Shown piece after piece: positions 5,343 through 55,104 of a stretch of 64,000 nt of DNA; positions within the stretch are counted from its first letter, which is position 1; each line of letters starts with the position of its first letter. Source of the DNA: Pelagomonas calceolata (Eukaryota); NCBI GenBank assembly GCA_918797485.1, contig CAKKNE010000001.1, positions 4,278,001 through 4,342,000 of the forward strand, given 5' to 3'. The position numbers and the translations under genes are program-made. Below the pieces are notes generated by a model. That model saw only the letters and a program-made list of their open reading frames with translations, did not search any database and was not told the origin of the DNA.

Positions 5343-5592
5343 GTTTATCGCTCTGCCGTGCTTGCTATTGTGAGTTGCTGTGAGTGCTCTCGCTATGGGT
5401 GCTCTTTCAGTGCTCTGCTCAGCTCCACTAGCTGGGAGTTGAAGCACCGATGCAAAACCAGTGTAAACTTTATGCCGCCACAGTAAACGAGTCGATGCAG
5501 CTCTGTCTCCGATGCTCGGCTTTTTTGCTCTCGGAGCTAGCGCCGTAACACACTAGGCATTCGGCATGCGTAAAAAAAGGCACACAGAACAA

Positions 5593-6636
5593 TTAACGCA
5601 ACTCCGCGGAACCCGCAGCAGGCAACGCACCCGTGTACCGCCCCGCGAAGTCGTAGGGAGACCCCTCTTCGTCGATGACCCAGAACATTGCGCCCCGCAA
5701 GCCCGCCGATTGCACGGCGCGCGCGGCGTCTTCGGGCTCCACTCTGATGAATTTCTCGTTGTCGGCCCAGCCGTTCGCGAAGCCGAGCAGCAGCTTCTCG
5801 CGCGGCACTCGGACGACGTCGGCCCCGACGGTCACGCCTTTCGTGGATAGGCCGGCGGCGACCTCTTCTGCGTACGTTGCCAGCGCGGCGCCGCCGCGCG
5901 TCAGCGCGTAGCAGGCCGACGAGTAGCCCTCGTAGAGCTGCACCGAGACGGCGTCGACGCTGTCCATGCCGGCCCGGGCCAGGACCGCGGCGTAGGCGTT
6001 GCGCCCGGCGTAGGGAAAGCCCGCCGCGGGAAAGCCGTTCTCGCCCGGCCGCCACGGCGCGCGCGGCTCATGATTTAACAGCAGGTCGACCTCCGCCGAG
6101 CCCGCGTCGAGGTACGACTCCGCGGGCGCTAGAGCGATCAGATACCCATGTCGCTTCGCCTCCCTGCAAAAGTCCGCCACGAGCGCCACCATCGCTTCAC
6201 TCAAGTTCTGAGACGCGTCGTCGTTGCCCTCGAGGTCCCAGTCGCACCCGTCAAATACAAAGCCGTGCGCCACGTTCCACGCGCGCCAGACCTCGAACCA
6301 CGCTCGGCCGTCGAGCTTCTCGTCGGGGTGCGGCCCGTTCCAGCCGCCGAACGCGACCAAGTGCCGCACGTCCAATTGCTCCGCTTCCAGTCGTTTCTGC
6401 GTCGCCCTTACCAGGTCCACGTCAAAGGTCGGTCTGACGCGCGGCACGTCGTCCTCGACCTCGAGGTGGGCGAACGACCAGATGACGACGTTGACGCCCT
6501 GGCGGCACGCGGCGACGACCCTGTCCTCGCGCAGACTACGGTCTGTCGCGTAGCCGACGAGCAGGCGGCCCTTCGGCAGAGCGCGCTCGGGCGTCGACAG
6601 CGCGGCCGCGGCTGCTACCGACATGGCAAAGAGCAT
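5593..6636 (-). CDS. GH18 (chitinase-like) glycoside hydrolase
   Basis: LVGY, VVIWSFA, VAFGGWNG, catalytic FDGCDWDLE (DxxDxDxE), VQLY, GAMFW. Confidence 0.8.
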   Translation of the reverse strand: MLFAMSVAAAAALSTPERALPKGRLLVGYATDRSLREDRVVAACRQGVNVVIWSFAHLEVEDDVPRVRPTFDVDLVRATQKRLEAEQLDVRHLVAFGGWNGPHPDEKLDGRAWFEVWRAWNVAHGFVFDGCDWDLEGNDDASQNLSEAMVALVADFCREAKRHGYLIALAPAESYLDAGSAEVDLLLNHEPRAPWRPGENGFPAAGFPYAGRNAYAAVLARAGMDSVDAVSVQLYEGYSSACYALTRGGAALATYAEEVAAGLSTKGVTVGADVVRVPREKLLLGFANGWADNEKFIRVEPEDAARAVQSAGLRGAMFWVIDEEGSPYDFAGRYTGALPAAGSAELR

Positions 6637-6881
6637 GGGCCGCTCTCTCAGAGAGGGGCTGTACCTGCGCTGCCGTCCGTTATCGTGCCCGCGAGGCTTC
6701 ACCCGATCTGTTCGATGTGCGTTGGAGGTCTTGAGCTGTCGCCGTGATCGCTGCGGCAGCACGGGCGGATTTAGAGTGGTGCTCTCTCGACCAGGCTGGG
6801 AGAGGCAGGCGCCACTGAAGGCAAAAAGGCCGGCGAAACGCCCACAGCGGAGGCGCAGCACGAGCAGCGATCCCAGAAGCG

Positions 6882-7853
6882 ATGCTGCGCCGCACGGTTG
6901 TCCTCATACGACGCGCACAAGCACCACTGGCACGGTATGGGCGCCAGTCGTCGACGCGCCGCGAGCTCAGCTTCGCCGAGGAGCTCATGCAGCACCGCAA
7001 GACGCAGGGCAAGACCATCGCTGCGAGGCGCGAGGACGGCGCCGTCGCGTTCCCGAATTTCGACGCGGTCGACGTCGACGGCACGGCCGTGGCCTTCCCC
7101 GCGTTGCTGAAACGACGCGTCACGTTGGTCGGGGTCTCGTTCCGGGCCATCGGCGCGGCGCAGTCGCGCGAGTGGCTCGAACCATTTGGTCGACGAGTTT
7201 ACTTGACTTATAGAGGGATGGCGCATACGGCCACTGCCCATTGTTCGCTCATCGAACAGCCCGTGTTTAGGTTCAAGTTTCTGCGGAACTGGCTGCTGAG
7301 AGATTTGCGGAAGGCGGCGACGGACATCTCCCTGAACACGTGGAATTGCCTCAAAATCGGCGACGTCGCTCCCATAAGACAGGAGCTGGGGCTCGACAAC
7401 CGATTGGTGGGCTACGTGTACTTGTTGGATCAGGAGGGGCGCGTGCGCTTCCGCGGGTCCGGAAGCCCGACGGAGGACGAATTGCAGCTCCTCTTCCAGG
7501 TCACGGAGGAGTGCGTGTCCGAGCGAGAGCGCGTCTGGACGGACGTCGACGAGCACGCGGCCGAGGTTACGTTCGACGTCGACGATGGTGAGGACCGGGA
7601 CGCGCGGCTGAAGAGAGATAGAGGCTTTCGAGCTAGAGCGCGGGACGCGCAGCTGCCGCTCGAGTTACCGGTCTGGGAGGCCGGCGGCGACGTCCCCGAG
7701 CCGCTCCCGCGCGTGCCGTGGGACGTCGTCGGCGCGGACGGCGGGCCCGTCGCGCCGCCGCCGCGCAAGCGCGAGGCGTCGCGCGCCGCGCGCCGCGCCG
7801 CCGGCCCGCTCTCGACGCAGACGCGGCCCGGGCGGAAGCGGCGGAGACACTAA
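6882..7853 (+). CDS. ATP10: Mitochondrial ATPase complex assembly factor ATP10
   Basis: Mitochondrial-type presequence; LGLDNRLVGYVYLLDQEGRVRFRGSGSPTEDEL matches the ATP10 C-terminal motif. Confidence 0.8.
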   Translation: MLRRTVVLIRRAQAPLARYGRQSSTRRELSFAEELMQHRKTQGKTIAARREDGAVAFPNFDAVDVDGTAVAFPALLKRRVTLVGVSFRAIGAAQSREWLEPFGRRVYLTYRGMAHTATAHCSLIEQPVFRFKFLRNWLLRDLRKAATDISLNTWNCLKIGDVAPIRQELGLDNRLVGYVYLLDQEGRVRFRGSGSPTEDELQLLFQVTEECVSERERVWTDVDEHAAEVTFDVDDGEDRDARLKRDRGFRARARDAQLPLELPVWEAGGDVPEPLPRVPWDVVGADGGPVAPPPRKREASRAARRAAGPLSTQTRPGRKRRRH

Positions 7854-8272
7854 GTTTTAGGATACAATACGCGCTTCCGCACCCACCGCTCGCCGTCGGA
7901 CCAGCGGATACTGTCCGCCGGGAAGGTCACCTGGACCATGCAGTCCAGCACGGCGCTGTTTCTCGCGCTCTCGAAGACTCCCGACTTGCCGGCGACTCGT
8001 AGGCCGTCGTCGCCAGCGCTTGACTCGAGTACGCGCCATCGGCCGTCCTCCTCCGCCTCGACGACGACGGCGCCGTCGCGCGTGACGACTCTGCGTCTGC
8101 TCTTGGATCCCTCGACGTAGTACAGGCCGTCGTATGTTTGTGCTGGGACGTCAGCACGCGCAGCGAACGGTACGGCAGCTGTTCCAATCGCAAATGTCCG
8201 CCTGGAGAGTGATAGTGCGATTGCTCGGCCGGCGAGGCACCAAATGAATAGCGGCTTCGCACGCAGCATCAT
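7850..8272 (-). CDS. Small hypothetical protein, possibly thylakoid lumen (twin-arginine signal)
   Basis: Signal-like N-terminus, then SRRTFAIGTAAVPFAARA (RR...AxA). Confidence 0.5.
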   Translation of the reverse strand: MMLRAKPLFIWCLAGRAIALSLSRRTFAIGTAAVPFAARADVPAQTYDGLYYVEGSKSRRRVVTRDGAVVVEAEEDGRWRVLESSAGDDGLRVAGKSGVFESARNSAVLDCMVQVTFPADSIRWSDGERWVRKRVLYPKT

Positions 8273-8505
8273 CGGTGTCGTGTATGTACGTTGTCAAAGT
8301 TATCGATGCGTAGCTGCAGCCTATAATGTGTACGGGGCGAAAACAAAGCGCGAGTCATTAGCTAGCGTTAGTAAGACACTAGCAAGCTCTCCGGCTCGTC
8401 TTGCTCTGCTGCCATTGCTCAGTCATAAAAGGCGTAAGCCTCATCCTCGCAGCCGGTCGCTGCGAGCCACGTGCGCTACGTGCGCTGCGCTTGGCTGCCT
8501 GAAAG

Positions 8506-9846
8506 ATGCCCCCGCGAAGGAAAAAATCAGCTTCCGGCACCACCAGACGCAAAAAGGTCAAAACGGAGCCAAAAGAGGACAATAGTTCTCTAAACATCAG
8601 CGTACGCTGCGGTGAGACGGGCGTGGCGCTTTGGTTTAAGCTTAAGAAGACAACGAAATTCAACAAAATAATGGATGCATTCGCTTCGAGACGCCCTTTT
8701 TTTTCGGTACCAGCGACTCCGCTCGCGCGCCTACCGGCGACGGAACTGTCGAGCCTCGGCGGCGCCGGCGGCGCGCTGGCCGCGGCGCTACGGGCGCGCG
8801 GCGCTGCCGTCTTAAAATTCAAGGGCCTGGACTTCGGCAGACACCCGCTCCTCGCCGAGGCGAACGCTTTCTTCAACAGCACGACTCAGCCGCGGGAGCA
8901 TCGCCTGGATGATGATTCGATGTCGGGCAGCGGTTACAAAAGTCCCGAGACAGGCCGGGAGCTCTACGTCCATCACCGCGGGTCGCCGGGGCCATTCACG
9001 AAGTCCGCGGCTGACGATCTCTTTGACGAGCTGCATGCGATTTCCCTCCAAGTGACCCGTGCGACCGCCCTGGGCCTCACTGGTAGCGGGACGGCGTTTG
9101 ACGAGCTCTTAGACACGAGGTCGTCGCGTTCAGCGGCGTCAAGCTGCCTCCGCTTCCACAAGTACTCGCAGGACAGCATGGCGAAGGATCCCTTGCGTGA
9201 CGCCCGCGTCCTGCCGGGGGGCGGAACGTCAGTCCCTTGCGCTGGTGCTGACCTTGTTGCCTGCCCGCGCCACGTCGACCGCGGCTTAGTTACTCTTATC
9301 CTGCCGTGCTCCGGCGGCTCGCGTCTGGAAGTGATGGATCCGAAGAACGGCTACGTCGAGCCCGTGGACCTGGCCGACGACGAAGTTGCTGTTCTCTGCG
9401 GGCACACCCTCTCGGTCGCGTCTTGCGGTGCAGTTTGCGAGGCGCCACATCGGGTGTCGTGGACGTCGGCTTCAGGGAACGAACGTCTTGCCACCGTGTT
9501 TACTTTGCGCGCGCCGCCGGACGGGCGTTTTGCCGCCGCGCACCAGAAGATCATCGAATCGGGCTGTCCCCACGACAAGGCATACGACCCGGGCTACGGA
9601 GCTCATCGCATTCACAGCGCCTCTTCGATCAAAACATTCAAGGGCGACGAGGACGTTGCCTTCGTCATGCAGAAATTTAGTGAGAGAAATGCTTCGATCC
9701 ACTCGAGGCGGTTCGAGCCCGTGCCCGCCAGGCATTTACGCTTCTTGTATGATGGATCACGCGTACACGGCGATCAGACGCCTGCGAGCCTCGATATGGA
9801 AAGTGGCGAACAGCTTGATTGCTTCGAGCCTATGATGGGCGACTGA
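8506..9846 (+). CDS. SUMO-like domain interrupted by a 2OG-Fe(II) oxygenase domain
   Basis: LNISVR..WFKLKKTTKFNKIMDAFASR is the SUMO N-half; HVD...HRV..R is the 2OG oxygenase triad and 2OG-binding Arg; LRFLYDGSRVHGDQTPASLDMESGEQLDC is the SUMO C-half. Confidence 0.75.
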   Translation: MPPRRKKSASGTTRRKKVKTEPKEDNSSLNISVRCGETGVALWFKLKKTTKFNKIMDAFASRRPFFSVPATPLARLPATELSSLGGAGGALAAALRARGAAVLKFKGLDFGRHPLLAEANAFFNSTTQPREHRLDDDSMSGSGYKSPETGRELYVHHRGSPGPFTKSAADDLFDELHAISLQVTRATALGLTGSGTAFDELLDTRSSRSAASSCLRFHKYSQDSMAKDPLRDARVLPGGGTSVPCAGADLVACPRHVDRGLVTLILPCSGGSRLEVMDPKNGYVEPVDLADDEVAVLCGHTLSVASCGAVCEAPHRVSWTSASGNERLATVFTLRAPPDGRFAAAHQKIIESGCPHDKAYDPGYGAHRIHSASSIKTFKGDEDVAFVMQKFSERNASIHSRRFEPVPARHLRFLYDGSRVHGDQTPASLDMESGEQLDCFEPMMGD

Positions 9847-11067: not shown

Positions 11068-11429
11068 CTCTCAGGCGGCCTCGTAATTAGTTTGCAAATG
11101 GCGCAAAAATGGCGGCCTCTCAGGCGCATCCATCCAGCACCCCGCGCGGGCAGCAGCTAGCGGCGTCCAAAGAGGCGCTGAGCAGGCCTCCTCGCTCGCC
11201 GTGGGCCGGTGGTAGCTATCTGGCTCGCATTTCTATCAGTGCTAGTGTGTCTCAAGACACGCTAGGTCGAATTGCAAAACCGGCTCTGGTCTGCAGCAGT
11301 GCTCGCTGCTCGCAAGCTGTCGGCGAGCTTCGTTATTTCTTCTGTCGGCTGCAGCAGCGATCGCGGAACTGCGCTCGCGCGCCAGTAATTACTGCCACCA
11401 GCAGGCTGCAGCACACTGAGCTCGCAGCG

Positions 11430-16647: not shown

Positions 16648-18547
16648 ATGAGCGCCCAGCTGGACCTCCCCCTGAGCCAGGTCTTGGTGTTCGAGAAGAC
16701 CGGCCGGGTACTGTGGAGAAGAGGCGCCCCGACGCTCAAGGGCGACCCTTTATCGGAACTCGTCGGCGCCTACCTCCTCGAAGAAAAGGGCGGCACGCAG
16801 AGCGCGCGCATCGGGGACCACGCCTTGGACTGGCGTTTTGTGAATGAGGCGGATTTGGTCGTCGTGACGGCGGCACCGGCAAGCATGGAGCTCGACTGGA
16901 CCGGGGACCTGTGCGACAGCGTGAGAAAGAAGGTTGCGGCACTCGCGAAGTCAGGCCACGTGCAGGAGGCCCTGCGGTCGTCCTTCGACCCTACTTTTGA
17001 CGGTCTGGAAAAAGAGTTCGAGGCGCGCTTGCGGATTAGAAGGAAAAAACAACAGGCCGACTTGGAAGCTCGCAAGGCGCGCAGCGCGGAGGCGGCCCAG
17101 CGGCGGGCCGAGGCCGAAGCTGAAGCGGCGGAAGCGGCTGAAGAGGAGGAGGGCGTGCGCGGCCGCGTCCTTCATCAACGATGGCGTCCCCACGCGTCAC
17201 CCGCGCGACGACGTCTCGCCCCCCATACGCCATCGACGCGACGCCTCATCAACGCAGGCCGAGAAGACCGACGAGGACCCCCTCGCCCGCTTAAAAAGAA
17301 GAACAGCCACGAAATCTTCCTCGGGCGGCCGACGGCGCGGCAAGAAGAAGCCCACGGACTCCTCAGAAAAGGCCGGCAAGAAGCCGACGGTCTGGAGAGA
17401 TGGTTCCCAGAGGAACAAGAAGGCTACGGCCGCCGAAGTCGCGGCGCTAGATCGAAGTGGCGCCCATGGCGACGCGGCGGCGCAGCAGGCGGCCCAGGAT
17501 CGGCACCTCGAAGAGATGCGCGGCACTTATTTAGCGAATGAGGGCGAGAAGGCCGCCTGGGACGAGGAGGAGGAGTTATTGTTAGAAGACGAGAGCGACG
17601 ACGAGGCTGCTCCGAAATCTTGGTTCGGCAGAAATGTGGGCAACTTACTGAACAACGTGGCTGGCAGTCAAACATTGACAAAGGAGGAGATCGAGCCCGT
17701 CATGGCCGATCTGAGGAAGACTTTGCTAGAAAAAAATGTCGCGGTCGAAGTGGCCGATGCCGTCACAAAAAGTGTGGCCGATTCACTCGTCGGTCAGAAA
17801 GTAGAAAGATTCGGACGAGCCTCGACGATGATCAAGCAGGCTCTAGCCGCAGCAGTGGAGCGTGTCCTGACACCGAAGCGCTCGACGGATGTGCTACGGG
17901 AGGTGCTAGATGCCAAAAGGAAGGGCAAGACCTACTCTATAGTTTTTGTGGGCATCAACGGCGTGGGCAAATCTACATCTCTCTCAAAGGTAGCCTACTA
18001 CCTCAAGGAGCACAACATCGACGTGATGATTACGGCCTGTGACACGTTCCGTTCTGGGGCCGTGGAGCAACTACGGTCCCACGCGAAATGCCTGGATGTG
18101 GAGTTGTTCGAGAAGGGCTACCTGAAGGATCCCGCGGACGTGGCTCGGGCATCTCTCGTACATGCCAAACAAGCGAAGAAGGATTGTGTATTGATAGACA
18201 CCGCTGGCAGAATGCAGAACAACGATAAGTTAATGAGGGAGTTAGCTAAATTAGTGAGTGTCAACACGCCGGATCTCGTGCTCTTCGTCGGCGAAGCTCT
18301 CGTAGGAAACGATGGGATCGATCAATTGAACATGTTCAACAAGTCGCTGGCGCAGTTCTGTAGCGATGGTCGGACGATCGATGGATTGGTGTTGACGAAG
18401 TTCGATACCATAGATGATAAAGTAGGGGCCACCCTCAGTATGACGTACAAGACGGGCCAGCCCATCATGTTCATCGGCGTCGGCCAGAAGTACACGCACC
18501 TCAAGAAGCTCTCCGTGAACGCGGTCGTGAACGCGCTGTTCAAGTGA
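16648..18547 (+). CDS. SRPRA: Signal recognition particle receptor alpha subunit, 2 exons (intron 17155-17257)
   Basis: N-terminal SRX-like domain (KTGRVLW); GINGVGKST, DTFRSGAVEQL, DTAGRMQ, TKFDT, GVGQKY; GGC|GTGCGC...ACGCAG|GCC joins the two frames. Confidence 0.92.
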
Positions 18548-19959: not shown

Positions 19960-19982
19960 GCTAGCGGCCTGTAACACACTAG
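19960..19982. promoter_or_regulatory. Representative copy of recurrent intergenic motif GCTAGCG-N-GTAASACACTAG
   Basis: gctagcggcctgtaacacactag; related copies at about 5536, 8361, 11242, 27818, 28852, 30551, 33282, 38112, 42218 and 54863. Confidence 0.7.
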
Positions 19983-21006: not shown

Positions 21007-21016
21007 CATGTATTTC

Positions 21017-27319: not shown

Positions 27320-27871
27320 CTTTGTATCTGGGTCGTCGCTTTACTCCCGATGTATATAGACCTGCGTGGACGGCGCGTTACTTTCATGCCTCGCGGCGGC
27401 AGCGTCTGTCTGTCTCTCTTTCTCTTCCCCTCTCCGATGCTGCCAGGTGCACCGGCCGCCGGCGCCGCTCCGGCCAGCGGGCCGCCGAGCGCTCGCACGA
27501 CGACGTCTCGGGCGGGCGGCGGCCAGAGGCTCCCGCCAGCGAGCCGTGAGTCTTCCAGCCGTCGGTGAGTGCTGTCGGTGCACGCTGACGCCGCGACGGC
27601 GTGGCAGGACCGGCAGATGGCGCCGCAGCCGCTTGTTTGGGCTGTGGCGAGCAAGCCATCAAGCTCAGCGATGCCAGCTCCGCCGGCTAAATCCTCGCGG
27701 CAGCGGCCACCCAGGGTCTCGGGAGGCTTCATAGTCAGTGTAAATTCGTCTCGGACGCCGTAAGGATGCCGTAATTTGCGGCTTTTAAGTCGTGCTTGCT
27801 AAAAATGGCGAGGGTTTGTAGACACACTAGAACCGAGTCTAGTAGGTTACAAGGAAGTCTCCAAAAAAACG

Positions 27872-28642: not shown

Positions 28643-29091
28643 CGTATACTTGTTCGTGCGCCGCGTCGATGGCGTCGGCGTGGACTTTAATGTCACTCCA
28701 AGCTGTGTTGTGTGGCTTGGCTGCGCCCCTAGGCTACAGCGCTGTAATAGATCGCCGGGGATGGATAGTAGGCGTCCTACAGCTGCCTCAAACGTGACAA
28801 ACAGCTCACGAGACGCGCTTCAAAGCTGATTCTGGATCCCGGGCGCTCTTTCTAGTGTGTTACATGCACGCTAGCACCTGGTTTGAGCCGGCGCCCATCT
28901 TTAGCAGCGTTCAGTGGCTCACAGCTACCCTAATACAACGCCTGAGGCCAGCTGAATGACGCCTCTTGCCGTCCGGACAATCTAAACGCGATAGGCCCGC
29001 TGCAGCCAGAGCCACAGCCTGAGCCACAGCAGCCTGGATTTGAGAGCTCAAACCAGCTAGCGTGTAGCGTGGACCATTGGGGGCGGCGGTC

Positions 29092-30383: not shown

Positions 30384-30807
30384 TTTTGTAACGACATGTT
30401 TGTAAGGATCCCTCCTGAACCCACACGATACCGACGGACGATCGATGCGTCCGGCGCTACCTAGATTAGACGATGTTACGGTGCTAGGACTAGTGGGCGG
30501 GGCCCCTGGGGGGGGGGGCACCGCGCGTCGCTGATTCGGCGCTACCTAGGTAGCGGTCTGTAAAGACACTAGAAGCATCTCACTGCTCGACGCGTAGAGC
30601 TACGGCGCCGCTTCAGGACCTGCACGCGTGCTCTGGCGCAGCGTCTCCCATCTATTCGTACCGTCTACGGACCCGTGCGGTACGGCTGGCGACCGCTGGG
30701 CAGCCGTGCGCTCTGGCAGCCTGTCAATCTTGTGGCAGCCCCAATTGATCGACATGGTGCGACTGCGAAGACTGCGTTTGCAACATTGACAGCGCTGAAC
30801 ACCGAAG

Positions 30808-33156: not shown

Positions 33157-33345
33157 TGTTGCCGCGTTGCGATGGGCTCCGGTGGTCGCTGGCCAGTAAG
33201 TGATCACTTAACAGCTACTATCTGATAGATGCGCGCAATAGCGGCTCAACAGGCGCCGCGTTTGCCCGGACTTGCTTGCTGCTAGTGTGTTACAGGACGC
33301 TAGCCCGCTTTTTGCGCGGCCGAGGCTTAAAAAACGGTCGCATAG

Positions 33346-38053: not shown

Positions 38054-38252
38054 GATCAGCTGCCCGTAGTCATGCCTGAGCGTGAGAAGCATTTTGGGAT
38101 TATATTTCTGAGCTAGCGGCAGTAACACACGAGCCACCGGAGTGCATCGCGGGTGAAGCATTTGACCAGCCCATCTGCCCCATTCCCACAGCGAACAACA
38201 CTTTCGCTGAGCCAAAATAATCGTGCATCCGCGTGGGACCCCTGCGCCTACG

Positions 38253-40721: not shown

Positions 40722-40831
40722 TTCTCTCCCGTTGCCGGCGGCTTTTTGGTGCTAGTGGCTCTATCGCTGGGTCGAGCTACATCGTCTACATCGTCTCACT
40801 TAAAGAGAAGCCGAAACCCCCCCTCTCTAAG

Positions 40832-42118
40832 CTAAAGCATCGTGATGTTGTCCCGCGTCCAGTCGCGGAAGGCGCGGAGCTCGGTGCGTTCGGTCGCCGT
40901 GAGTCTCTCGTAGCGTTCGAGGATGGCGTTCGCTCCATCGCGGCCTTTGTTCGACAGGCCCAGGACGCCGCGGCGATTTGCCCCCAGGAAGGTGTTGTTG
41001 AAGTCGGACGTCATGTGGTGGTCGAGCATGTCGAGGATGTCGGAGCTGCCGCCCGGACCGGGTGTCGGCCCGCACTTGCGGATCTGGACGAGCGCGGGGA
41101 GGACGTAGTCCTCGACGAGCTCGAGCTTCGAGTTCGCACCGCAGGCGGCGCCGGCGTTGTTTGGGTTCCTCATCATCTGATACAAGACGCACGGGTTGGT
41201 GGCGTCGAGGCGCGACTTGCGCTTCTTGACCCGGTCCGACGTTAAGCGGCCGAGGGCCGCGAAGACGGCGAGGACGTCGCGGGCGGCGTCCTTGTCCGCG
41301 GCGACGGGAGGCAAAATCGGCAAAATACCTCGGTCCATCAAGCACTGGTCACGGTCGAAGAGGCAGACGACGGGCGTCCGCTGGTCCTTCCGGCCGTCCT
41401 TGAAGTGGAGGCCGACGATGGACTTGGGCGAATTTACGTACACGTCGCAGTCCGTCGAGTACGCGCACGCCACCTTGTGGCCCTCGAAGCCATCGCGGAC
41501 GAGTTCCGCGACCTTCGCGTCGGCGTTCGAGGTCCAGGCCTGCACGCACCGGACCCCGCGGCTCGTCAGCTCGCCGTACAGCCATTCGCAGATCTGGTAG
41601 AACTCCAGCCGACCGTCGCCTACGGCGTAGCGGACCGGCCCGTGCGGCCCCGCGGCCACCGAAGGGTCGCGGAAGCCGCCCGTCGCGTTCTCCGAGTTGA
41701 AATAGTTGGCTGCGAGGTTCATGTCGAAGACGGCGATGGGCCCGTCGAAGCCGCAGTCCATCAAGAAACTAAATGCGCGGTCCGTCGTGTTTTTGGCCTC
41801 CTGTTTCTGCTGGTCTAGGGGCGGTTTCGGCGGCGTGATGCACTCGTCTGGGAACCGCTTCGACGCCCACGCGAGGGCGAGGGGCCCCATGTCGACCGCG
41901 ACGAGGATCTGGCGGCGCTGCCCGCCCTGGCCCACGGGCCGCGGCGCGGCGGTTCCGCGCGGCCGGCTGAAGACTGAGAGGCGACCGGGCGCTGGTGGTG
42001 GGGTGTCGGTCTGCTGGCGGAGCGCGTTGATGTGGTTGCGTACCTCGGTCTTGGATTGCTTGGCGCAGTGCTGCTGCATCGATCTGTGGACCAGCCATCG
42101 AAACTCGTCGACGCCCAT
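40832..42118 (-). CDS. Divergent XPG/FEN1-like (PIN-fold) 5' nuclease
   Basis: MGV start, VAVD, PIAVFD, GVRCVQA..NADAKVAELV..G, AYSTDCDVYV follow the XPG-N and XPG-I motif order. Confidence 0.55.
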   Translation of the reverse strand: MGVDEFRWLVHRSMQQHCAKQSKTEVRNHINALRQQTDTPPPAPGRLSVFSRPRGTAAPRPVGQGGQRRQILVAVDMGPLALAWASKRFPDECITPPKPPLDQQKQEAKNTTDRAFSFLMDCGFDGPIAVFDMNLAANYFNSENATGGFRDPSVAAGPHGPVRYAVGDGRLEFYQICEWLYGELTSRGVRCVQAWTSNADAKVAELVRDGFEGHKVACAYSTDCDVYVNSPKSIVGLHFKDGRKDQRTPVVCLFDRDQCLMDRGILPILPPVAADKDAARDVLAVFAALGRLTSDRVKKRKSRLDATNPCVLYQMMRNPNNAGAACGANSKLELVEDYVLPALVQIRKCGPTPGPGGSSDILDMLDHHMTSDFNNTFLGANRRGVLGLSNKGRDGANAILERYERLTATERTELRAFRDWTRDNITML

Positions 42119-42651
42119 GGTCCGACGGAGCTGATATATGATCACGGCTGCAAAGCGGAGCGCGGGGCAGCTATCGCGCGCGGCAAGGCACACCAGGGGA
42201 CGAGGCCAAGGCTTGCTCTAGTGTCTTACAGGCCGCTAGCGTCAAGCCCTGGCTGGCGCCGCGACGCCTCGAACCCGAGGCCGAGGCCTCGCGCCAGTTG
42301 GGAGCGGTGCACCGAGGATGTAGTGGGAGCTCCTGGAGGTCGAGTTTGCTGATGCGCGCCGACCGGCACGGAGCAAAGCCGCAGATAGCTCCCCCTTTAA
42401 TGGCTCCGGGGAGTACCAGTCCGCCTTTGACCTATGCTTCGTCGAGGCAAAATGGCTTTTTTTCAAGGCCGTGTGGAAAAAACGGGTTTCTCAGGTCAAT
42501 ACACATCGCCTTTACTCACCGCTTGGGAGGCGCAAAACCTCGTCTCGCGCGCTGTCCGCACACGCGAGGACGCCCGTGCACGAATTCAGTCGGCGCGTAC
42601 GCACGACAGCAAAATCAGCACTGAAAAAAAAAATTGACCTGAATTGATAAT

Positions 42652-44118
42652 ATGGCCGAGGAGCCGCCGAAACGGCGCCTGGTGGTCACGGAGGTGACGC
42701 GGGGCCGCAACGGCGGGCCGGGCATCCTGGCCCTCGGGCTCGGGGCGCCGCGCGCGGCACCGGCCGCGGTCGGCGCGGGTCGCCGCGGCGCCGCGCAACC
42801 GCCGCCGCCGCCGCTCTTCAAGTTGCGCTCGGACTTCGCCAAGCAAGCAGAGGAAGAAGATGGAACTCCTGTGATCGACATCTGCAAGAAGGCCGAGGCG
42901 TGCATCTGTCTGTCGACGGTCGGCGCGCTGTGCCACGACCAGGCCACGGCCGCGGCCATAGAGTGTGCCTACGGCGCGCCGCTGCTCTACAACGGCCAGG
43001 TCGTGTTATTAGACCGCGAGGCCGTCGAGGGCTGCGTCAACGACTGGATCGACCGTATCGAGGATCGTGATCTTGAGATATGGACGGGGTTGACTCCCAT
43101 TAATGGCAGCCTCGCGTCGGCTGCCGAGGTCTTCAACAAAAGCACGGACCCCTTTTACGCCTTCTCGGACGTGTTCGTGCCGGAGTCTGAGACGCGCGAG
43201 AGGATCAAGGACCGGCCCAAGGACCGCAAGGACACCATTCTCGCGCGGTTGCGAAGCGGTGCGTCTGGCGAATGCGGTCACATGCACGTGACGACGGTTG
43301 TCTACGTGGAGCGCCTCGGCCGGTACGTCAAGGCGTCGCTCGCTTTTCAGTCGCGGAAAGCCATATTGACCAACATGCGCATCTATCCAACGTCGCGAGT
43401 GGCCTTGGTAGGACGCTTGAGGGAGTTTGCGGCGGCGCGGAACGACAACAAACTCCTCGAGCGATTGGCACCGGGGGTCATTTCGAGCAACCACCCGAAC
43501 AACTTCGGCATCATCGAGCTGAAGGCGCACAAGAAGAGTGAGTTCAAGCGTCATGAAAAGGGAGTCTCAGGAACGACTCCGCTACAAACTGCGGCGGACA
43601 ACCTCTACCAGACGATGTTCAAGGAGGGCGCAGCGGCGAAGGAAATGGTCGAGAGCTTCTCGGCCAAATTGCGCGACGACTTCCAGCAGTTCGGCATGGA
43701 CCTGGACAACATCCAGGAGCACCTCGTCGGCGGCGTCGACGTCCGGGAGGGCTTCGAGGTCTTCGACCTGGTCGCGCACGCGTTCACGGACGACGACGGC
43801 GCCGCCACGCGCGCCGAAAGGCACGCCCGGGACCACGCCGACGAGATGGACGTGTTCTGCAACGAATTTGCAGTGATGCCGACTTCCCACACGCTGCCCT
43901 TCCTCTTCGACGACGTCGCGCAGCAGACGTTCAAGGCCTTCGGCGTCGCGCTCCGCTCGCGGATCTCCCAGCTGCCCGCGACCTGTCTGACCTGGCCTGA
44001 CCCGGCCGACGACGACGCCGACGACTTGATCCCCGACTTCCCGCCGGGGGGCGGGGACGACGAGATCCACGTGTTCCACCACATGTCGTCCATCGAGCTC
44101 GAGAACTACGAGGCGTGA
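42652..44118 (+). CDS. Hypothetical protein (possible HUH motif GHMHV)
   Basis: 488-aa intronless ATG ORF with coding-like codon usage; no confident family. Confidence 0.6.
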   Translation: MAEEPPKRRLVVTEVTRGRNGGPGILALGLGAPRAAPAAVGAGRRGAAQPPPPPLFKLRSDFAKQAEEEDGTPVIDICKKAEACICLSTVGALCHDQATAAAIECAYGAPLLYNGQVVLLDREAVEGCVNDWIDRIEDRDLEIWTGLTPINGSLASAAEVFNKSTDPFYAFSDVFVPESETRERIKDRPKDRKDTILARLRSGASGECGHMHVTTVVYVERLGRYVKASLAFQSRKAILTNMRIYPTSRVALVGRLREFAAARNDNKLLERLAPGVISSNHPNNFGIIELKAHKKSEFKRHEKGVSGTTPLQTAADNLYQTMFKEGAAAKEMVESFSAKLRDDFQQFGMDLDNIQEHLVGGVDVREGFEVFDLVAHAFTDDDGAATRAERHARDHADEMDVFCNEFAVMPTSHTLPFLFDDVAQQTFKAFGVALRSRISQLPATCLTWPDPADDDADDLIPDFPPGGGDDEIHVFHHMSSIELENYEA

Positions 44119-44394
44119 GGTCCCGGCGCCTCCGTCGTTGTGACTCGTAAGTCTTGTATTTCAACACGACTGCGCTTCGGCCGCTGCAGGCTGTAAGGTG
44201 CCAAAAAGCTGAGGCGGCAAGACCTGGTCGACCTAGCTTCGTAGACCTACTAGGATAGGCCAAAACTTTGCCAAAAGTGCGCACAGCTCGAGCGGAGCAC
44301 AGCGGTGCGCGGGCTGCTCCGGACAGACCGAGCGCGCGCTCCCACGCGATTCTGCGCTGCCCAAGACCAAGCACGCGACACATACGCTGCCCCA

Positions 44395-45842
44395 ATGCGC
44401 CGCCTCCTCCCCTGGCTCGCTTTGACATGCGCGCAAGACGCGAAGCCCTACTACGAGGTCGTCTTCGCCGTGTTAACAGTACCAAATCATAGACCACATA
44501 GAGACGCTATCAGAAATGGCTACGGGCAGCCGGGCGGCTTCCGGACGAAGCTTTGGTTCGTGGTGTCAGAAAGGGACCCGGGGTATGAAGGAGCCGCCTT
44601 CGTCGAGGAGCGGTCGAAGCGAGACGACTTACTGGTGTGCGACACGGAACCCGGGTTCGACCATATTATCGGCAAGGTCTCTTGTGCCATCCGGAAGGCC
44701 GTTCAGTTGTACGACTTCGACTTCTTCTTCAAGACGGACGACGACGCTACTCTATGTATTGCGCAGCTCGTCAAGGACCTGCGGGCGGCTCCAAAAGGTG
44801 CGAGTGTCTATGCGGGGCGCCGCGTCAAGGCCGGACGAGCTTTAGAGGCGGGCAAGCCGCTCGAGGTCAATCTTGGTTTAACATCAGACCCGCCGCACTT
44901 CGGGGGCCACGGCTACGGCGTCTCGTATGATGTCGCGAGGTTCGTGGCCCGGCCGCCGGCGCCCTTGTACCACCACCTGCACGAGGACACGTGCTTCGGG
45001 AACTGGGTCGTCGGCTTCGACGTGAAACGTCTCAATTTGAGAGCGATGACGGACCACTACTACCCGAACCAGAAGAATCTCGCGGGCGTCTCGCGTCCGT
45101 GTGGAAATCGCGCCATCGTGCAGACGCACTTACGGAGACGACGTCGCGTCGATGGCGTTAGAACCTCCAAGCCATCGTGCAGACGCATTTCCACACGCAG
45201 GTCTCGGCCGAGCGGAAACGGGCGTGCGCCCGGATCATGGCCCAGCGCTACGCCAACGGCTCGGCCTGGGACCTCTACGGGTCGGGCTGCGGCTTCAAGC
45301 AGCTCCCTCGCAGTGTGCCCGTGGAGAAGTGCGTGCGCGTCGCGTCGGCTGCCGCGGCCGCGGCGCCGCGCGCGCGCCCCGCGCTTGCGTCAGTGCCCGC
45401 ATTGCCCAGCCAGGGTCTCGCCGTCGTGATGACAAAGGGGGCCTGCGCCGTGGATGTGCCCTGCGTGGCCGGACCGGACCTGCGCGCTGGATTGAGACGG
45501 ACGTCCGCGAAGCACGTGGTCGTCGTCTTTGGTGGAAACGTAGCTCCATGTCTCTCATCTCTCCGAAAGGAACTTGAAATGAGGAGCGGCCCGCTCTACG
45601 CCGGCGCGGCTCCGTCGCGGAACGTCCCGCTGCCCGCGAGCCTCGAGGAACGGACAAAATTAGGCGTCGCGCCCGAGCACTTTGATGGAGTGGCGGTCCT
45701 CTCGGCGGAGCTCGCTTCGTATGTCGCGTCCCAGGCAACGCCGCCTTTGCTTGCCGGTGACGGGCCCGCGGCTTTGGGTGTGTGGCTGGCGCCGTTCGAT
45801 GTTGATCGGCGGCCGCTTGCTGCGTTGAGGGGGTGCGTGTAA
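44395..45842 (+). CDS. GT31 beta-1,3-galactosyltransferase-like, 2 exons (intron 45088-45200)
   Basis: RDAIR, FFFKTDDD, FGGHGYGVS, EDTCFGNW; GGC|GTCTCG...CACGCAG|GTCTCG splices in frame. Confidence 0.8.
45088..45200 (+). mobile_element. Introner-like intron (113 nt)
   Basis: TSD-like GTCTCG at both junctions; inverted ends gtgtggaaat / atttccacac; internal cgcgtcgatggcg and a direct repeat gccatcgtgcagacgca. Confidence 0.8.
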
Positions 45843-48345: not shown

Positions 48346-48646
48346 CTTGTTTCAATGTTTTCCTTCCCGTGTCGCGGCGACGGCGTCGCGTCTCGCGACG
48401 TGTCTCGCGTCGATGCCGTCGCGTCGACGGCGTTGGAGACTGCGGCTAGTATGTGATGCCGCTAGGGCGTCGTCGATGGCGGTCGAGTGCAGTCGCGGCA
48501 CAAGCGATTACACGAGGTGCTAGACGCGTGACAATACCGCATAACGTGGACATTTGTCGCCGCGCATCTCTTCTCGACCACGCGCTGGGCCACGCCGAAG
48601 CAGTGACGCTGCAGCTGGAGAGTGCCACTTGACGAGCAGCAAACGG

Positions 48647-49003: not shown

Positions 49004-49078
49004 CTATTGTTGTCTGAACTTGCTCCTCACGCCATAGCGCGGACGTGGCGTGGAACGTGGATACAAATCACACAATGA

Positions 49079-50753: not shown

Positions 50754-51109
50754 TGCTGCACTCCTGCCTTAGAGGTGCTCAAAAGCATGAAGGCTGGCAA
50801 AGCGATGGAAATGTTGACAGCAGCGCTGCATTTTGGTGCGGAGAGTATGTTTTATAGGCGGTCTAGGCCCTCACGCTGCAACAAACGTAAAACTGGCTGA
50901 TCACCTAGCTCATAGACATGCTAGCACTCTCGAGGCTGAGCTTTGCAGCCGATTGCTGCAATAAACGCGTGTCCTGGGCCTGGACTGCAATAATACGTCA
51001 CCCTGCACACTGTGCGCGGCCACTCCTTGATCGGTGGCATCGCTGCGATTGGCAAAACCGCTCTGACGCATCGAGGCTGCTGAATCACTGTGCAGCACAC
51101 GCGTAAGCG

Positions 51110-51835: not shown

Positions 51836-51890
51836 GTTAGTATGTTCTGTCTTAGGCCCTCGCGCGCCTAGAGCTCTGGTGGGACGTCGT

Positions 51891-53302
51891 CTAGACGAGG
51901 ATCTTCTGGACCGCCGTGTCCTTCATCGGCGACTCCTCGCCGTCCTCCCACGCGATGACGCACATGCCGTCCTCGACGCTCTTGATGACGCCGTCGAAGT
52001 ACTCCGTGCCGGACGCCGAGCGGTAGCCCTTGAATTTCTTGTTCACCTTCTTGCCGACGAGCGACGTGGACGCGGCGCCGCGCTTCTTGGCGCGGCGCAC
52101 CGGGGCCTCGGTCACGGGGTCCGGGCAGCCGAAGGGGTCCGTCTTGGCCTTCTTCGCCTTCTTCGTCGGCGTCGTCGCGGGCTTGGCCGCCTTGCCCTTC
52201 GTGGGCTTGGCCGCGGGCGTCTGCTTGCCGAGCAGGCCCGCCTTGGTCGTCGTGTAGGTCTCCTCGTCCATCTTGCCCTCGTCTAGGGCCTTCTTCGCGT
52301 CGCGGAGGGCCTTGACGGTCTCGGGCGTCAGCGCGTCGCTCGCCTTCGCCGGCGTGGCCTCCTCCTCGGCCTCGGCCTCGGGCTCGGGCTCGACGGGCGG
52401 CGGCGCGAGCCGCGCCTGCGTGTCGAGGTGGTGCTGGTAGAAGAGGAGCTTGCGCAGCGGGTGGTTGAGGAGCCAGCCGTTGCCGTGGTCGCGGCCGTGC
52501 TCGTTCTCGAAGTCGCGCGCGTCCTCGATGATCTGGCCGATATCAGACCTGCGTAGATCGTCGCGTCGATGGCGTGAAACTCGGAATTGATTGGGCACTG
52601 CGTCCGACTGCATCGTCACGGGCTCGTCCTTGCGGAAGATGACGTCGTCCGGCCAGCCGTACTGGGGCGAGGCGTAGTGGACGCCCTCGCCGGACACGAG
52701 CTTCGTGACCTGGCGGATGACCTGGCGCCGGTTGTCGTCGGAGATGGGGTGCTCGCCGTCGGGCTCCATCCACCTGTGTGCATATGAACTGGTGATCACG
52801 CCGTCGCGTCGATGGCGTGGTTTCGTGAAGGACGCCGACGCGGACGCCTCGAAATCGTCCATGTTGAACTCGTCGAGCGCCGCGCGCTGCTCCTCGGAGA
52901 GCTCGACGAGGCGGTTCTTGCGCGCGCGGCGGCCGCCGGAGCCGCGCGAGCGCTGGCGCGGCCGCTCGTCGTCCGACCACTCGTCGTAGGTCAGGCGCTC
53001 GGGCTCGGCCGTGCCGCCCTGGAGGCGCGACGAGCGGCGGCGCTCGCTCTCGGGCACCTTCTTGCGGGGCAGGCGCGGCTTCGGCGGCGCCTTCTTCTTG
53101 TTCTGCTTCATCTGTGTGGAAACCAACCAGAGTCTCGTCGATGGCGTGGAGGTCAAGATTTGATTTATGCACTGCTCAGCACGTAGCCGCCACCGTGGGG
53201 GTCGATGCCGATGGACAGCATGAAGGCCTCGTTGCGCTTGATGCGCTCGTCGCGCTCAATCTCGTACTGGGACTTGGGGGCGACGGGGATGTTCGACGGC
53301 AT
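51891..53302 (-). CDS. Probable nuclear protein with N-terminal YE..R..RI.RN motif and C-terminal Tudor-like domain, 4 exons (introns 53112-53182, 52774-52845, 52549-52608)
   Basis: SQYEIERDERIKRNEAFMLSIGI; RRSSRL; LVGKKVNKKF...YFDGVI....CVIAWEDGE; all three GT-AG introns keep or restore the frame. Confidence 0.65.
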
Positions 53303-53819
53303 GCTTGTGGCTGTGGGTGTGTTTTGCTTGTGCTCGGTTTTCCCGCCGGTTACGCGGGAGTTGTTTGCCTGCGCGCGGGATGCGGTTTCTCGCTGCGCGC
53401 GGGCTCTGTGCGCGGTTTCGAAGCTCTGTGCGCTGTCGCGAGGCCGCGCGCGGCGATGGCGGCTTGTGTGGGCTGTTTCTTGCTTTTTGGCGGACTGCCC
53501 AGTGCGTCGCGCAGGGCTCGTTTTAGCGTGCGCGCGCGCGCGCGCCAGCACATATATACATCTGAAGCCTATCGGCGCGGACGCTGGGCGTGTACGATGC
53601 AGTGCCGATCTAAACAGACGACTTTAATGGCTGTGCTGGGGCTCTCAATTATGGCGCCTCTCCTTAGCCACTAGCCTTTTTGAATCTGGAATACCCTCTC
53701 CCGAGCTCTCTGACCCTCAAAGCATCCTCCCAACGAGCAGTGGAGGCGATACGGGCCCCAAGAACCAATTACGTGCACATCGCGGGCGCCGCGGTGCCAC
53801 TACTAGTCTTGAAACAACA

Positions 53820-54680
53820 TTAGGCGAGCAACTCCGCAATCTCCGAGTATCCCTCGGATCGCGCGACGTCGGCCGCAGTCTTCCCGTCGCCGTCCTTCAG
53901 CGACCGGTCCGCGCCACGGTCCGCGAGCAACGTCGCCAGGGGCGTCGACCCCAGGAGCGCTGCGTAGTGCAACGGCGTCGAGCCGTCATCGTCGCTCGTG
54001 TTCACGTCCGCGCCGGCGTCGAGGAGCAGCCGCGCGGAATCCTCCCTCTCGGCGTCGACAGCGTGGATGAGCGGCGTCAGGTGATAGTCGTCGATCTCGT
54101 TGACATCAAAGTCGCCGAAGGCCTTCAAACTGGCCGCCCCGGCCCTAGCCGCCTCGAAGACGTCTTCGGCCGCCGGCGGCGGCGCCGCGTTGGAGGACTC
54201 GTTGATGCCGCACGCGCTCAGGTCGTTCTTGACCTTGGCCAGCTGGTCGTCCGAGGCGTCCTCCTCCGGCGCGATGAGCAGGAAGTCCGGCACCTCGCGC
54301 GTGACTTCGTCCACATATGCACGCATGGCGCTCAGCTGCTGCGGGTGCTCCTCGTGGGCCGAGCGCCAGGCGGCGTCCTTCGCGCGTTCCCCTTCCTGCA
54401 TGTTTTCGTAAAGCGTCCTGAAGGAAGGCGAGTCATTGGGCGGAGGGGCACCGTTCGTCGCCACACAGTGCAGGCCAAACAACTTGCGCTGCGCGTCGTC
54501 GGAGAGTTTGACCGCTTGAGTGTTCACGTACTCGACAGCTTCAAAAAAGTCGGCGCGTGTGGCCTGCTCCTCGGCGGCGTCCATGCCGCTCGCGTCGGCG
54601 GCGGGTGCCGGCGCCTCCGCTGCCGCTGCCTCTTTGGCGCGCCTGAGGACCTCGGGCGGGAGGCTTATCTGGCTTGCCAT
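53820..54680 (-). CDS. Acyl-CoA-binding domain plus ankyrin repeats (ACBD6-like)
   Basis: FFEAVEYV, KLFGL..AT.G, KDAAW, AMRAYV (ACBP); TPLIHAV, GSTPLHYAA (ankyrin). Confidence 0.8.
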   Translation of the reverse strand: MASQISLPPEVLRRAKEAAAAEAPAPAADASGMDAAEEQATRADFFEAVEYVNTQAVKLSDDAQRKLFGLHCVATNGAPPPNDSPSFRTLYENMQEGERAKDAAWRSAHEEHPQQLSAMRAYVDEVTREVPDFLLIAPEEDASDDQLAKVKNDLSACGINESSNAAPPPAAEDVFEAARAGAASLKAFGDFDVNEIDDYHLTPLIHAVDAEREDSARLLLDAGADVNTSDDDGSTPLHYAALLGSTPLATLLADRGADRSLKDGDGKTAADVARSEGYSEIAELLA

Positions 54681-55104
54681 TGCTACGAGCTGTATTTGTG
54701 CTTGAGAGAGCTGCTGGTGTGCAGAGCTGCAGCGCTGCCCCAGTGCAGCTATCTGTGCTTGGGAGCGGACTGCGCTGGCGCGCGCAGCAGTCTGCGCTGC
54801 TGCTGGTCCCAGGTCGTATCTGTACGCCGAGAGCCAAAGCCAAAAGTCGTGCGCGCAAGCCAGCTAGCGGCTGTAAGACACTAGAAAGAACTATACCCGC
54901 GGAGGCGTTCAGGGCACAAGCACACATCGAAAGCACACCCAGAAGGAAATAGAAGAACATCGCCGTCGCCGCCTCCGAGCTAACACTCGGGGCGGGGCCG
55001 GGGGCTGGGCGGGCGTGCGTTCACGCAGGGAGGCGTCGGTCGGGTGGCTAGGCGGCCGAGCTCTAAGCAAAGCAAAAGGAAAAGAAAAAAACACAAAAAC
55101 AAGC

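What the first reader, a model, noticed from the sequence alone, without database searches (positions are those of the whole stretch)
5536..54884. Recurrent ~22-bp CTAG-bracketed motif upstream of genes, mostly in divergent promoters
Seen, in either orientation: gctagcgccgtaacacactag (5536), gctagcgttagtaagacactag (8361), ctagtgtgtctcaagacacgctag (11242), gctagcggcctgtaacacactag (19960), gtagacacactag (27818, partial), ctagtgtgttacatgcacgctagc (28852), tagcggtctgtaaagacactag (30551), ctagtgtgttacaggacgctagc (33282), gctagcggcagtaacacacgag (38112), ctagtgtcttacaggccgctagc (42218), gctagcggctgtaagacactag (54863). Weaker variants lie at about 48446 and 50906. I saw none inside called exons. Seven lie between head-to-head genes, and most lie within about 250 bp of a start codon. 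Inference: a lineage-specific bipartite core-promoter or transcription-factor site with a variable spacer and dyad symmetry, or less likely a transposon footprint or replication-origin signal.
Basis: partly seen in the sequence, partly recalled or inferred. Interest (0 to 1): 0.75.

Follow-up and report, generated by a model that had tools for sequence, protein, structure and literature searches.

The report
Algal promoter anchor that phases nucleosomes
A 22-24-letter DNA signal sits in front of about a third of the genes in this stretch of a tiny ocean alga's genome, in either direction, and is likely the docking site of an abundant protein that would set where genes start and how the DNA is wrapped on both sides.

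Summary
The motif is real. Consensus: (A)GCTAGCG-N2-5-GTAA[G/C]ACACTAG(CAA). A matrix built only from marine metagenome copies recovers 10 window sites (null 0.1), all intergenic. None of 143 scored sites lies in predicted coding DNA. The motif is orientation-free (median 176 and 177 bp to the next ATG) and is as common in tandem gaps as in divergent ones, so it is not a core-promoter element.

Two signals are locked to the motif, not to the ATG. One is a CG-poor, sense-strand CA-rich patch 140-180 bp away toward gene starts (likely the start zone). The other is a 152-bp periodicity of synonymous GC inside flanking genes (p about 0.001, cross-validated in the loci, not reproduced in the window alone).

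Best reading: the site of a Reb1/Abf1-like general regulatory factor that phases nucleosomes; about 5,000 copies per genome by extrapolation. The factor, start sites and nucleosomes were not measured. No target-site duplication was found, but about 6% of copies share a 45-bp flank, a hint of spread by a mobile element. My searches found it nowhere in print.

The parts
5536..5556 (+). Motif copy in tandem gap, 194 bp upstream of the ATG (5342) of a small minus-strand ORF
   Evidence: (score 31)
8361..8382 (+). Motif copy, divergent gap (ATGs 8272 minus, 8506 plus)
   Evidence: (44)
11242..11265 (-). Motif copy, degenerate core, divergent gap (Sel1-repeat gene / THUMP methyltransferase)
   Evidence: (20)
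19960..19982 (+). Motif copy, divergent gap (ankyrin gene / mitochondrial carrier)
   Evidence: (41)
28852..28875 (-). Motif copy at the centre of a 449-bp divergent gap (MIP aquaporin / nucleotidyltransferase-like gene), 206 and 215 bp from the ATGs
   Evidence: (39)
30551..30572 (+). Motif copy with damaged left arm, tandem gap, abutting a short repeat insertion
   Evidence: (19)
33282..33304 (-). Motif copy, divergent gap; kept in the homologous promoter of locus L092 (22 of 23 identical; flanks 0.50 and 0.62)
   Evidence: (40)
38112..38133 (+). Motif copy with CGAG for the right CTAG, divergent gap
   Evidence: (33)
42218..42240 (-). Motif copy, divergent gap
   Evidence: (36)
54863..54884 (+). 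Motif copy, tandem gap upstream of an ACBP-ankyrin gene
   Evidence: (45)
27818..27830 (+). Right half only, about 500 bp upstream of RPS17; unproven
   Evidence: (below threshold)
44233..44253 (+).
48446..48465 (-). Weak CTAG-16-CTAG variant upstream of Pam16; unproven
50905..50924 (.). Weak CTAG-16-CTAG variant in a divergent gap (Rit1 / SCO1); unproven
29002..29042 (+). Example of the CG-poor, CA/CAG-rich patch 140-180 bp from the centre of site 28852 (inferred start zone of the plus-strand gene)
   Evidence: sequence; pooled statistic
28682..28722 (-). Mirror patch on the other side of site 28852 (inferred start zone of the aquaporin gene)
   Evidence: sequence
30452..30549 (+). Insertion of a short dispersed repeat (repeat A, starts 30474) between 13-bp direct repeats (30452-30464, 30537-30549), directly beside the motif

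Best explanation
The motif lies only between genes, in either orientation, a median of about 177 bp from the next start codon, and is likely the binding site of an abundant general regulatory factor that would act as a two-way barrier, positioning nucleosomes and start sites on both sides. Shown: the site, its spacer variation, its position, its persistence between relatives, a strand-specific patch at a fixed 140-180 bp toward gene starts, and a 152-bp synonymous-GC rhythm locked to it. Inferred: (1) a protein with two flexibly linked or dimeric DNA-binding modules reads the GCTAGCG arm and the GTAA[G/C]ACACTAG(CAA) arm; (2) with the flanking A/T tracts it keeps local DNA open and serves as the reference from which remodelers space nucleosomes about 152 bp apart; (3) most adjacent genes initiate near +155, some near +70. 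The factor is unidentified; an AP2-type domain is only a lead.
For: Exclusion from coding DNA: 0 of 143 sites, loci 58% coding; 10 of 10 intergenic in the window. Orientation-free and symmetric: medians 176 and 177 bp, 49 and 47 arms, as reported for Reb1 sites (passages). A/T tracts 18-45 bp from the centre (TTTT 88 vs 21 expected). Patch at +140-180 in non-coding DNA: CG 104 vs 183 expected (z -5.9; shift permutation p 0.005, 0 of 200), CAC[AT] 50 vs 23; best z only -1.6 and 1.6 when the same arms are anchored on the ATG. It is strand-specific (CA 11.1 vs 6.8-7.2 per 100 bp, TG flat), present on both motif sides and absent toward 3' ends. It is also seen in 68 short-locus arms without gene calls (CG -1.60 +/- 0.29) and in the window's 13 arms. 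A-T skew turns positive at +140 in 46 long-leader arms. Motif-locked CG excess in coding DNA at +285-325 (z 4.3, window chosen post hoc). GC3 rhythm: best period 152 bp, z 6.55 vs null 3.59 +/- 0.56, 0 of 1000 permutations reaching it; none when ATG-anchored. It is confined to third positions (4-fold z 6.4, 2-fold 3.7, positions 1-2 0.5) and positive in 6 of 6 cycles tested. Out-of-sample z 3.9 vs null 0.05 +/- 0.64; the left and right sides give 152 and 151 separately. Four homologous promoter pairs keep the motif (0.87-0.96) while flanks are 0.45-0.70 against 0.48-0.49 for unrelated pairs; two of the four differ by a 1-nt spacer indel. One pair (L032/L071) has the motif flipped at nearly the same place.
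Against: No protein, start-site, accessibility or nucleosome data were obtained; all mechanism steps rest on sequence composition. The 152-bp rhythm was found after several features were tried: CG periodograms were negative, and CG and total-GC folds were weak. It is not reproduced in the window alone (18 arms, z 0.6), is absent in cycle 1, gives no peak in anchor-free autocorrelation, and its out-of-sample z falls to 1.65 when 17 multicopy-family loci are dropped. The +305 CG peak and the later GC3 peaks are not in one phase, so linker versus dyad cannot be assigned. A quarter of arms have the ATG closer than 142 bp, and sense ATGs are depleted from +25 on, so +155 cannot be the only start zone. 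9 of 16 divergent window gaps lack a strong site, and divergent gaps without it have a similar length (median 436 vs 407 bp). Gene calls in the loci come from my own simple predictor, which ignores introns. The loci were selected by an exact pattern, which biases the consensus and the conservation test. Convergent gaps are short, so their lack of sites is weak evidence per base (2 sites in 6.1 kb vs about 1.2 per kb).
Confidence: 0.62

Rival explanations
1. An ordinary upstream activator site for one transcription factor with a very large regulon. It recruits the transcription machinery at a preferred distance, and any nucleosome phasing follows from transcription, not from the factor as a barrier.
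For: Promoter-only position, orientation independence and a fixed distance to the start-like patch fit, as for the oomycete CCAAT box (equal orientations, median 83 nt upstream of INR; passages). The patch is missing toward 3' ends.
Against: The 152-bp rhythm also appears in 27 arms running into gene 3' ends (z 4.3 at period 152, phase 94; best period 146, p 0.027), where no start site is expected. Neighbouring genes share no evident function.
Confidence: 0.15
2. Remnant or terminus of a transposable element that inserts in open promoter DNA; mostly neutral, with the spacing signals set by the promoter, not by the motif.
For: A motif this long cannot easily arise thousands of times by point mutation (inference). 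About 9 of 153 sites share a same-orientation 45-bp flank on the GCTAGCG side. The end of repeat A resembles the left two-thirds of the motif, and 6 of its 8 copies lie within 113 bp of a site.
Against: No target-site duplication at any of the offsets tested in 121 sites. Information drops to background beyond -1 and +5. The base after the right CTAG is never T (0 of 125), against the recalled Helitron rule. The hairpin is weak (mean -2.9 kcal/mol). The motif is kept while immediate flanks are near unrelated levels.
Confidence: 0.1
3. A replication-origin, insulator or SMC-loading signal that lies in promoter gaps and phases nucleosomes as origins and CTCF sites do.
For: A long, asymmetric, variable-spacer site with arrays on both sides resembles CTCF or origin-bound sites (recalled).
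Against: About one site per 6 kb is far denser than recalled origin spacing. The strand-specific patch appears only toward gene starts. Origin activity was not tested.
Confidence: 0.08
4. A core-promoter element read by the basal machinery next to the start site.
For: Sense ATGs are depleted from +25 onward, and short-leader genes show a CA/CG signal at +65-80.
Against: No orientation bias, whereas oomycete core elements are 1.8- to 5.9-fold forward-biased (passage). The main start-like patch is about 155 bp away.
Confidence: 0.05

Closest known systems
Yeast general regulatory factor sites (Reb1, Abf1, Rap1)
   Same: Abundant promoter sites that phase arrays symmetrically regardless of orientation. 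In vivo, Reb1 lies 60-80 bp from the +1 nucleosome (passages of bioRxiv 2020.02.28.969618), which puts the dyad about 135-155 bp away, near the patch seen here. GRFs control start-site fidelity (abstract of bioRxiv 331793). Abf1's site is bipartite (recalled).
   Different: No sequence likeness. This site is longer, with CTAG-to-CTAG spacing of 16-20 bp. If the patch is the start zone, it is farther from the site than in yeast (recalled, about 100 bp). The factor is unknown and binding is not shown.
CTCF and REST/NRSF sites of animals
   Same: Long, high-information, two-part sites with variable spacer; CTCF phases nucleosomes on both sides; spread by duplication or transposition (all recalled, no call).
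   Different: Different sequence and kingdom. Here the sites are promoter-restricted and sit at roughly a third of promoter gaps.
ApiAP2 target motifs GCTAGC (TgAP2XI-5) and TAGCTA (AP2-O)
   Same: The left arm contains GCTAGC, often preceded by A; AP2 domains can dimerise or occur in tandem (passages of PMC6631176). Phytophthora has a small AP2 family (passage).
   Different: Those are 6-bp sites in alveolates. The right arm and core here have no counterpart, and no pelagophyte AP2 protein was examined.
Oomycete promoter elements INR, FPR, DPEP and CCAAT box
   Same: Nearest described stramenopile promoter motifs; the CCAAT box is orientation-free and lies upstream of the initiator (passages of PMC3599244).
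   Different: No CTAG in that paper's main text (0 hits); different sequence, shorter distance to the start.
Linker-patterned genomes with DNMT5 (Aureococcus, Micromonas, Emiliania) and introner elements
   Same: A related pelagophyte has nucleosome-linker CG methylation (second-hand passage), and introners insert between nucleosomes (review passage), so a nucleosome imprint on sequence is plausible in this group.
   Different: The primary papers were not held. No anchoring motif is mentioned in the passages I saw. No strong CG periodicity was seen here.

Membership tests
General regulatory factor (barrier) site, Reb1/Abf1 type | Abundant and restricted to promoter-containing intergenic DNA | tested here: met
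   10 of 27 non-convergent window gaps, 0 of 16 convergent; 0 of 143 in coding DNA
General regulatory factor (barrier) site, Reb1/Abf1 type | Acts independently of orientation, symmetric on both sides | tested here: met
   49 vs 47 arms, medians 176 and 177 bp; patch on both sides; flipped in L032/L071
General regulatory factor (barrier) site, Reb1/Abf1 type | Phased nucleosome arrays aligned to the site | tested here: inconclusive
   Indirect only: 152-bp GC3 rhythm in loci, not in the window alone
General regulatory factor (barrier) site, Reb1/Abf1 type | Bound in vivo by an abundant sequence-specific protein; lies in a nucleosome-depleted region | not testable with these tools
   No chromatin or binding data available
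General regulatory factor (barrier) site, Reb1/Abf1 type | Fixed distance to measured start sites | tested here: inconclusive
   Composition proxy at +140-180; no RNA reads obtained
Core promoter element (INR/FPR/DPE type) | Forward orientation bias relative to the gene | tested here: not met
   against the ratios
DNA-transposon footprint or MITE | Target-site duplication in the flanks | tested here: not met
   No excess for k 2-8 at 32 offset pairs, 121 sites
DNA-transposon footprint or MITE | Empty-site alleles in relatives | tested here: inconclusive
   Five homologous pairs all carry the motif, but were selected for it
Helitron 3' end | CTRR end followed by T, with a GC-rich hairpin upstream (recalled definition) | tested here: not met
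   T after the right CTAG in 0 of 125; weak hairpin
RFX X-box | CTAGCAAC half-site (recalled) | tested here: not met
   C after CTAGCAA in 1 of 59
ApiAP2/AP2 target site | Bound by an AP2-domain protein | not tested
   Only the GCTAGC resemblance; no proteome was held
Known structured RNA | Rfam match at gathering score | tested here: not met
   0 matches in the 64-kb window

The most novel reading that the evidence does not exclude
Pelagomonas builds about a third of its promoters on a 152-bp lattice: one protein on a 23-bp site sits in a linker, a single nucleosome fills the next ~145 bp on each side, and transcription starts at that nucleosome's far edge in both directions, with gene-body arrays at nearly the shortest possible repeat counted off from the same point. 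The site is seeded through the genome by small mobile cassettes. That would be a promoter design in which a nucleosome, not an open region, is the ruler between factor and start site.
Probability: 0.2. Interest if true: 0.85.

Novelty: new variant of a known kind. Interest (0 to 1): 0.64.

Why it matters
Pelagomonas is described as cosmopolitan and abundant among open-ocean picoalgae (abstract listing), and my searches found no promoter motif described for any pelagophyte. A single site at roughly a third of promoter gaps (about 5,000 copies if 10 per 64 kb holds over 32.4 Mb; Poisson range about 2,400-9,300) gives a direct handle on the master chromatin factor of this lineage by pull-down. 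It also gives a ready bidirectional promoter module for transgenes and a marker for gene starts in environmental pelagophyte contigs. It makes testable whether barrier-factor promoter organisation, worked out in yeast, evolved independently in stramenopiles, and predicts an unusually short nucleosome repeat of about 152 bp.

Tried and rejected
No whole genome was held and no sequencing reads were obtained, so start sites, expression and polymorphism are untested. More DNA from the short metagenome contigs was not available, so the planned independent replicate of the 152-bp test was not run. Viral contigs: 0 exact motif matches and 0 for repeat A. GTDB: 9 matches in 596 Gb; 7 are in MAGs, several near contig ends, and two share identical flanks, read as chance or algal contamination. 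Rfam: none. Target-site duplication: none. 10-bp WW periodicity beside the motif: no clear peak. CG periodicity at 140-200 bp: not significant; CG and GC3 autocorrelation: no peak. Introner ends as linker markers: too few and scattered. Patch spacing in 16 motif-less divergent promoters: 66-448 bp, no fixed value. A second common motif in motif-less promoters: nothing strong. Window site 11242 versus L052 looked flipped, but the 5' parts are not alignable, so it is not counted. RFX and Helitron readings were rejected. Earlier scan notes: five look-ups, none bearing on this. Rows dropped: L035, L071, L084, L092 and L103 (one of each homologous pair) from the positional analyses; L122-L130 from all statistics; 17 multicopy-family loci in one robustness run.
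Full report
Observation. All quoted strings are at the stated places. The window is a compact eukaryotic sequence, 64.5% GC; I mapped 44 genes by hand from the sequence, ORFs and Pfam. A matrix trained only on metagenome copies finds 10 window sites at score 16 or more (null mean 0.1, 20 simulations) and nothing else down to score 8. All 10 are intergenic in an 82% genic window: 7 of 16 divergent, 3 of 11 tandem and 0 of 16 convergent gaps.

Organism and spread. The window's RPS17 shares a 90% cluster with Aureococcus RPS17. The exact pattern gave 0 viral hits and 9 in 596 Gb of prokaryote genomes. Of 10 locus proteins looked up, 9 were found, and 3 of their clusters carry an organism name, each Pelagomonas calceolata. 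Homologous loci align at 73-95% over their matched stretches, so the motif spans several Pelagomonas-like lineages. Other pelagophyte genera were not testable.

Anatomy. Consensus A-GCTAGCG-[G/T]C[C/A]T-GTAA[G/C]ACACTAG-CAA[G]C. Spacer of 4 in 82, 3 in 32, 5 in 8 and 2 in 5 of 127; G variant in 112. Outside the pattern only -1 (A 54%) and +1 to +5 carry information. In 28 sites not selected by the exact pattern, TAG in the left arm and AC.AG in the right are invariant, while the middle tolerates substitutions and shifts. The arms form an imperfect inverted repeat (GCTAGYG) around an asymmetric core, with the CTAGs 16-20 bp apart, mode 18. As single-stranded DNA the hairpin is weak.

Position. 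With a coding model trained on window genes, 0 of 143 scored locus sites lie in coding DNA, which covers 58% of the loci. Distances to the next ATG are the same on both sides (median 176 bp, n 49; 177 bp, n 47). Sites occur in 23 of 34 divergent, 23 of 34 tandem and 2 of 43 convergent gaps. The loci are centred on sites, so these fractions are inflated, and convergent gaps are short. Four homologous promoter pairs keep the motif at 0.87-0.96 identity while 40-bp flanks are 0.45-0.70 (unrelated pairs 0.48-0.49). Two of the four differ by one spacer base. In a fifth pair, L032/L071, the motif is inverted at nearly the same place. These pairs were selected for the motif, so they show persistence, not a rate.

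Signals locked to the motif. For these tests I used 148 sites (296 arms), after dropping one locus of each homologous pair and adding the window's 10. A/T tracts crowd 18-45 bp from the centre. In non-coding DNA of arms leading to a gene start, a patch at +140-180 is CG-poor (104 vs 183 expected, z -5.9) and rich in CAC[AT] (50 vs 23). The same arms anchored on the ATG give at best z -1.6 and 1.6. None of 200 shifted-anchor permutations reached it. It is sense-strand specific (CA and AG up, TG flat), on both motif sides, and absent in 27 arms leading to 3' ends. It shows in 68 short-locus arms without gene calls and in the window's 13 arms; both sets were part of the pool where it was first seen. 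A-T skew starts at +140 in long-leader genes; short-leader genes show a similar signal at +65-80, and sense ATGs are depleted from +25 on. I read +155 as the main start zone and +70 as a minor one (inference). A +1 nucleosome dyad at about +160 is the alternative, matching yeast Reb1 geometry.

Nucleosome-scale rhythm. CG periodograms were negative. A motif-locked CG excess at +285-325 in coding DNA remained after removing the ATG trend (z 4.3, post hoc). Third-position GC folded at 152 bp, phase 80-110, over +350 to +1300: z 6.55 against a null of 3.59 +/- 0.56 that includes the period and phase search, 0 of 1000 permutations. There was no such signal when ATG-anchored; the 27 arms into 3' ends gave z 4.3 at phase 94. 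It is confined to third positions and positive in all 6 cycles in range, but not in cycle 1. Split-half out-of-sample z is 3.9 (null 0.05 +/- 0.64), and left and right sides give 152 and 151. Without 17 multicopy-family loci the best period is still 152 but out-of-sample z is 1.65, and the window's own 18 arms give z 0.6. Three features in two arm sets were folded, so the corrected p is about 0.01. I treat this as good but indirect evidence of phased nucleosomes.

Mobile-element question. No target-site duplication; never T after the right CTAG. Yet about 9 of 153 sites share a 45-bp flank (repeat B) in the same orientation on the GCTAGCG side, 1-50 bp away, one beside telomere-type repeats. 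Repeat A has 8 copies, 6 within 113 bp of a site, and its end resembles the left part of the motif; the window copy sits between 13-bp direct repeats. These fit either insertion into open, factor-bound DNA or seeding of sites by small elements. They do not explain most copies.

Mechanism. Most likely an abundant factor binds the two arms through flexibly linked or dimeric modules and holds the local DNA open with help from the A/T tracts. It would serve as the barrier from which remodelers space nucleosomes about 152 bp apart in both directions, fixing start sites at a set distance (0.62). Shown: site, position, symmetry, persistence, patch, rhythm. Inferred: protein, open chromatin, nucleosomes, start sites. 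Rivals: plain activator site (0.15), element remnant (0.10), origin or insulator (0.08), core promoter (0.05).

Comparison with what is known. It works like yeast Reb1/Abf1 sites (passages of bioRxiv 2020.02.28.969618; abstract of bioRxiv 331793) but shares no sequence with them, and binding is untested, so it is not filed as a member. The left arm contains GCTAGC, a target of apicomplexan AP2 factors (passages of PMC6631176): a lead only. The CTCF, REST, RFX and Helitron features I cite are recalled. The P. calceolata genome preprint has 0 hits for 'motif' and 'promoter' in its main text (section 17 read; supplements closed). Searches for the motif's 12-mers gave one unrelated listing; topic searches gave no description in their listings. 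PMC3599244, PMC11267843, PMC10228655 and bioRxiv 2021.06.11.447926 were seen as passages only. The library lacks most subscription papers.

Verdict. A real, lineage-wide, apparently undescribed promoter motif with sequence evidence that it anchors promoter and nucleosome geometry: a new variant of a known kind, interest 0.64.

Noticed in passing
window 30452-30549; L033:3148-3209, L062:2171-2234, L075:2082-2136, L110, L115, L116, L005: Repeat A: a 30-100-bp dispersed repeat with a constant TG-starting end and a variable other end; 6 of 8 copies lie within 113 bp of a motif; the window copy is flanked by 13-bp direct repeats. Parent element unknown; none in viral contigs.
   Followed up: partly
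L007:1360, L012:763, L024, L033:4, L034:1450 and 5470, L065, L075:3505, L095: Repeat B: a ~45-bp module with a possible short stem-loop, always on the GCTAGCG side of the motif in the same orientation, often just after a gene's 3' end; in L024 it follows telomere-type TTAGGG repeats inside a contig.
   Followed up: partly
L032:1142-1180 vs L071:520-575: The flipped motif in L032 keeps a remnant of the opposite orientation's flank on its left, as a template-switch micro-inversion between the CTAG repeats would leave.
   Followed up: partly
window 3931-4006, 17173-17258, 35860-35980, 36480-36590, 39600-39680, 45130-45200, 52550-52830, 53115-53170, 28660-28680 (approximate): Many short introns and one leader carry the same GC-rich palindromic ends, introner-like; several look much shorter than the 210 bp reported for this species' introners.
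   Followed up: no
window 8506-9846: ORF with a SUMO-like start and end and a 2OG-Fe(II) oxygenase domain between them, as if an oxygenase were inserted into a SUMO gene.
   Followed up: no
window 57926-59242; L001, L008, L021, L028, L050, L068, L119: MYND-finger/TPR gene of a large multicopy family that recurs in at least 7 loci, several next to a motif.
   Followed up: no
window 59495-63201: Two tandem, related alanine-rich proteins (604 and 544 aa) with signal-like N-termini and no Pfam match.
   Followed up: no
window 21017-25707: Two adjacent inward-rectifier potassium channel genes; the first appears to run on into tandem GST domains.
   Followed up: no
window 40640-40730 vs 41990-42080: A ~90-bp duplication of the 5' part of the unknown gene at 40832-42118, placed just downstream of it; the gene and its divergent neighbour (42652-44118) have no Pfam match.
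   Followed up: no
L047:745-940 / L084:93-287: An ~80-bp block 45-125 bp from the motif is almost invariant between two otherwise diverged loci, with no gene called; possibly a small RNA or short exon.
   Followed up: no
L122-L127, L130: Seven prokaryote MAGs in GTDB carry the motif, several near contig ends and two with identical flanks, suggesting algal DNA in those bins.
   Followed up: partly
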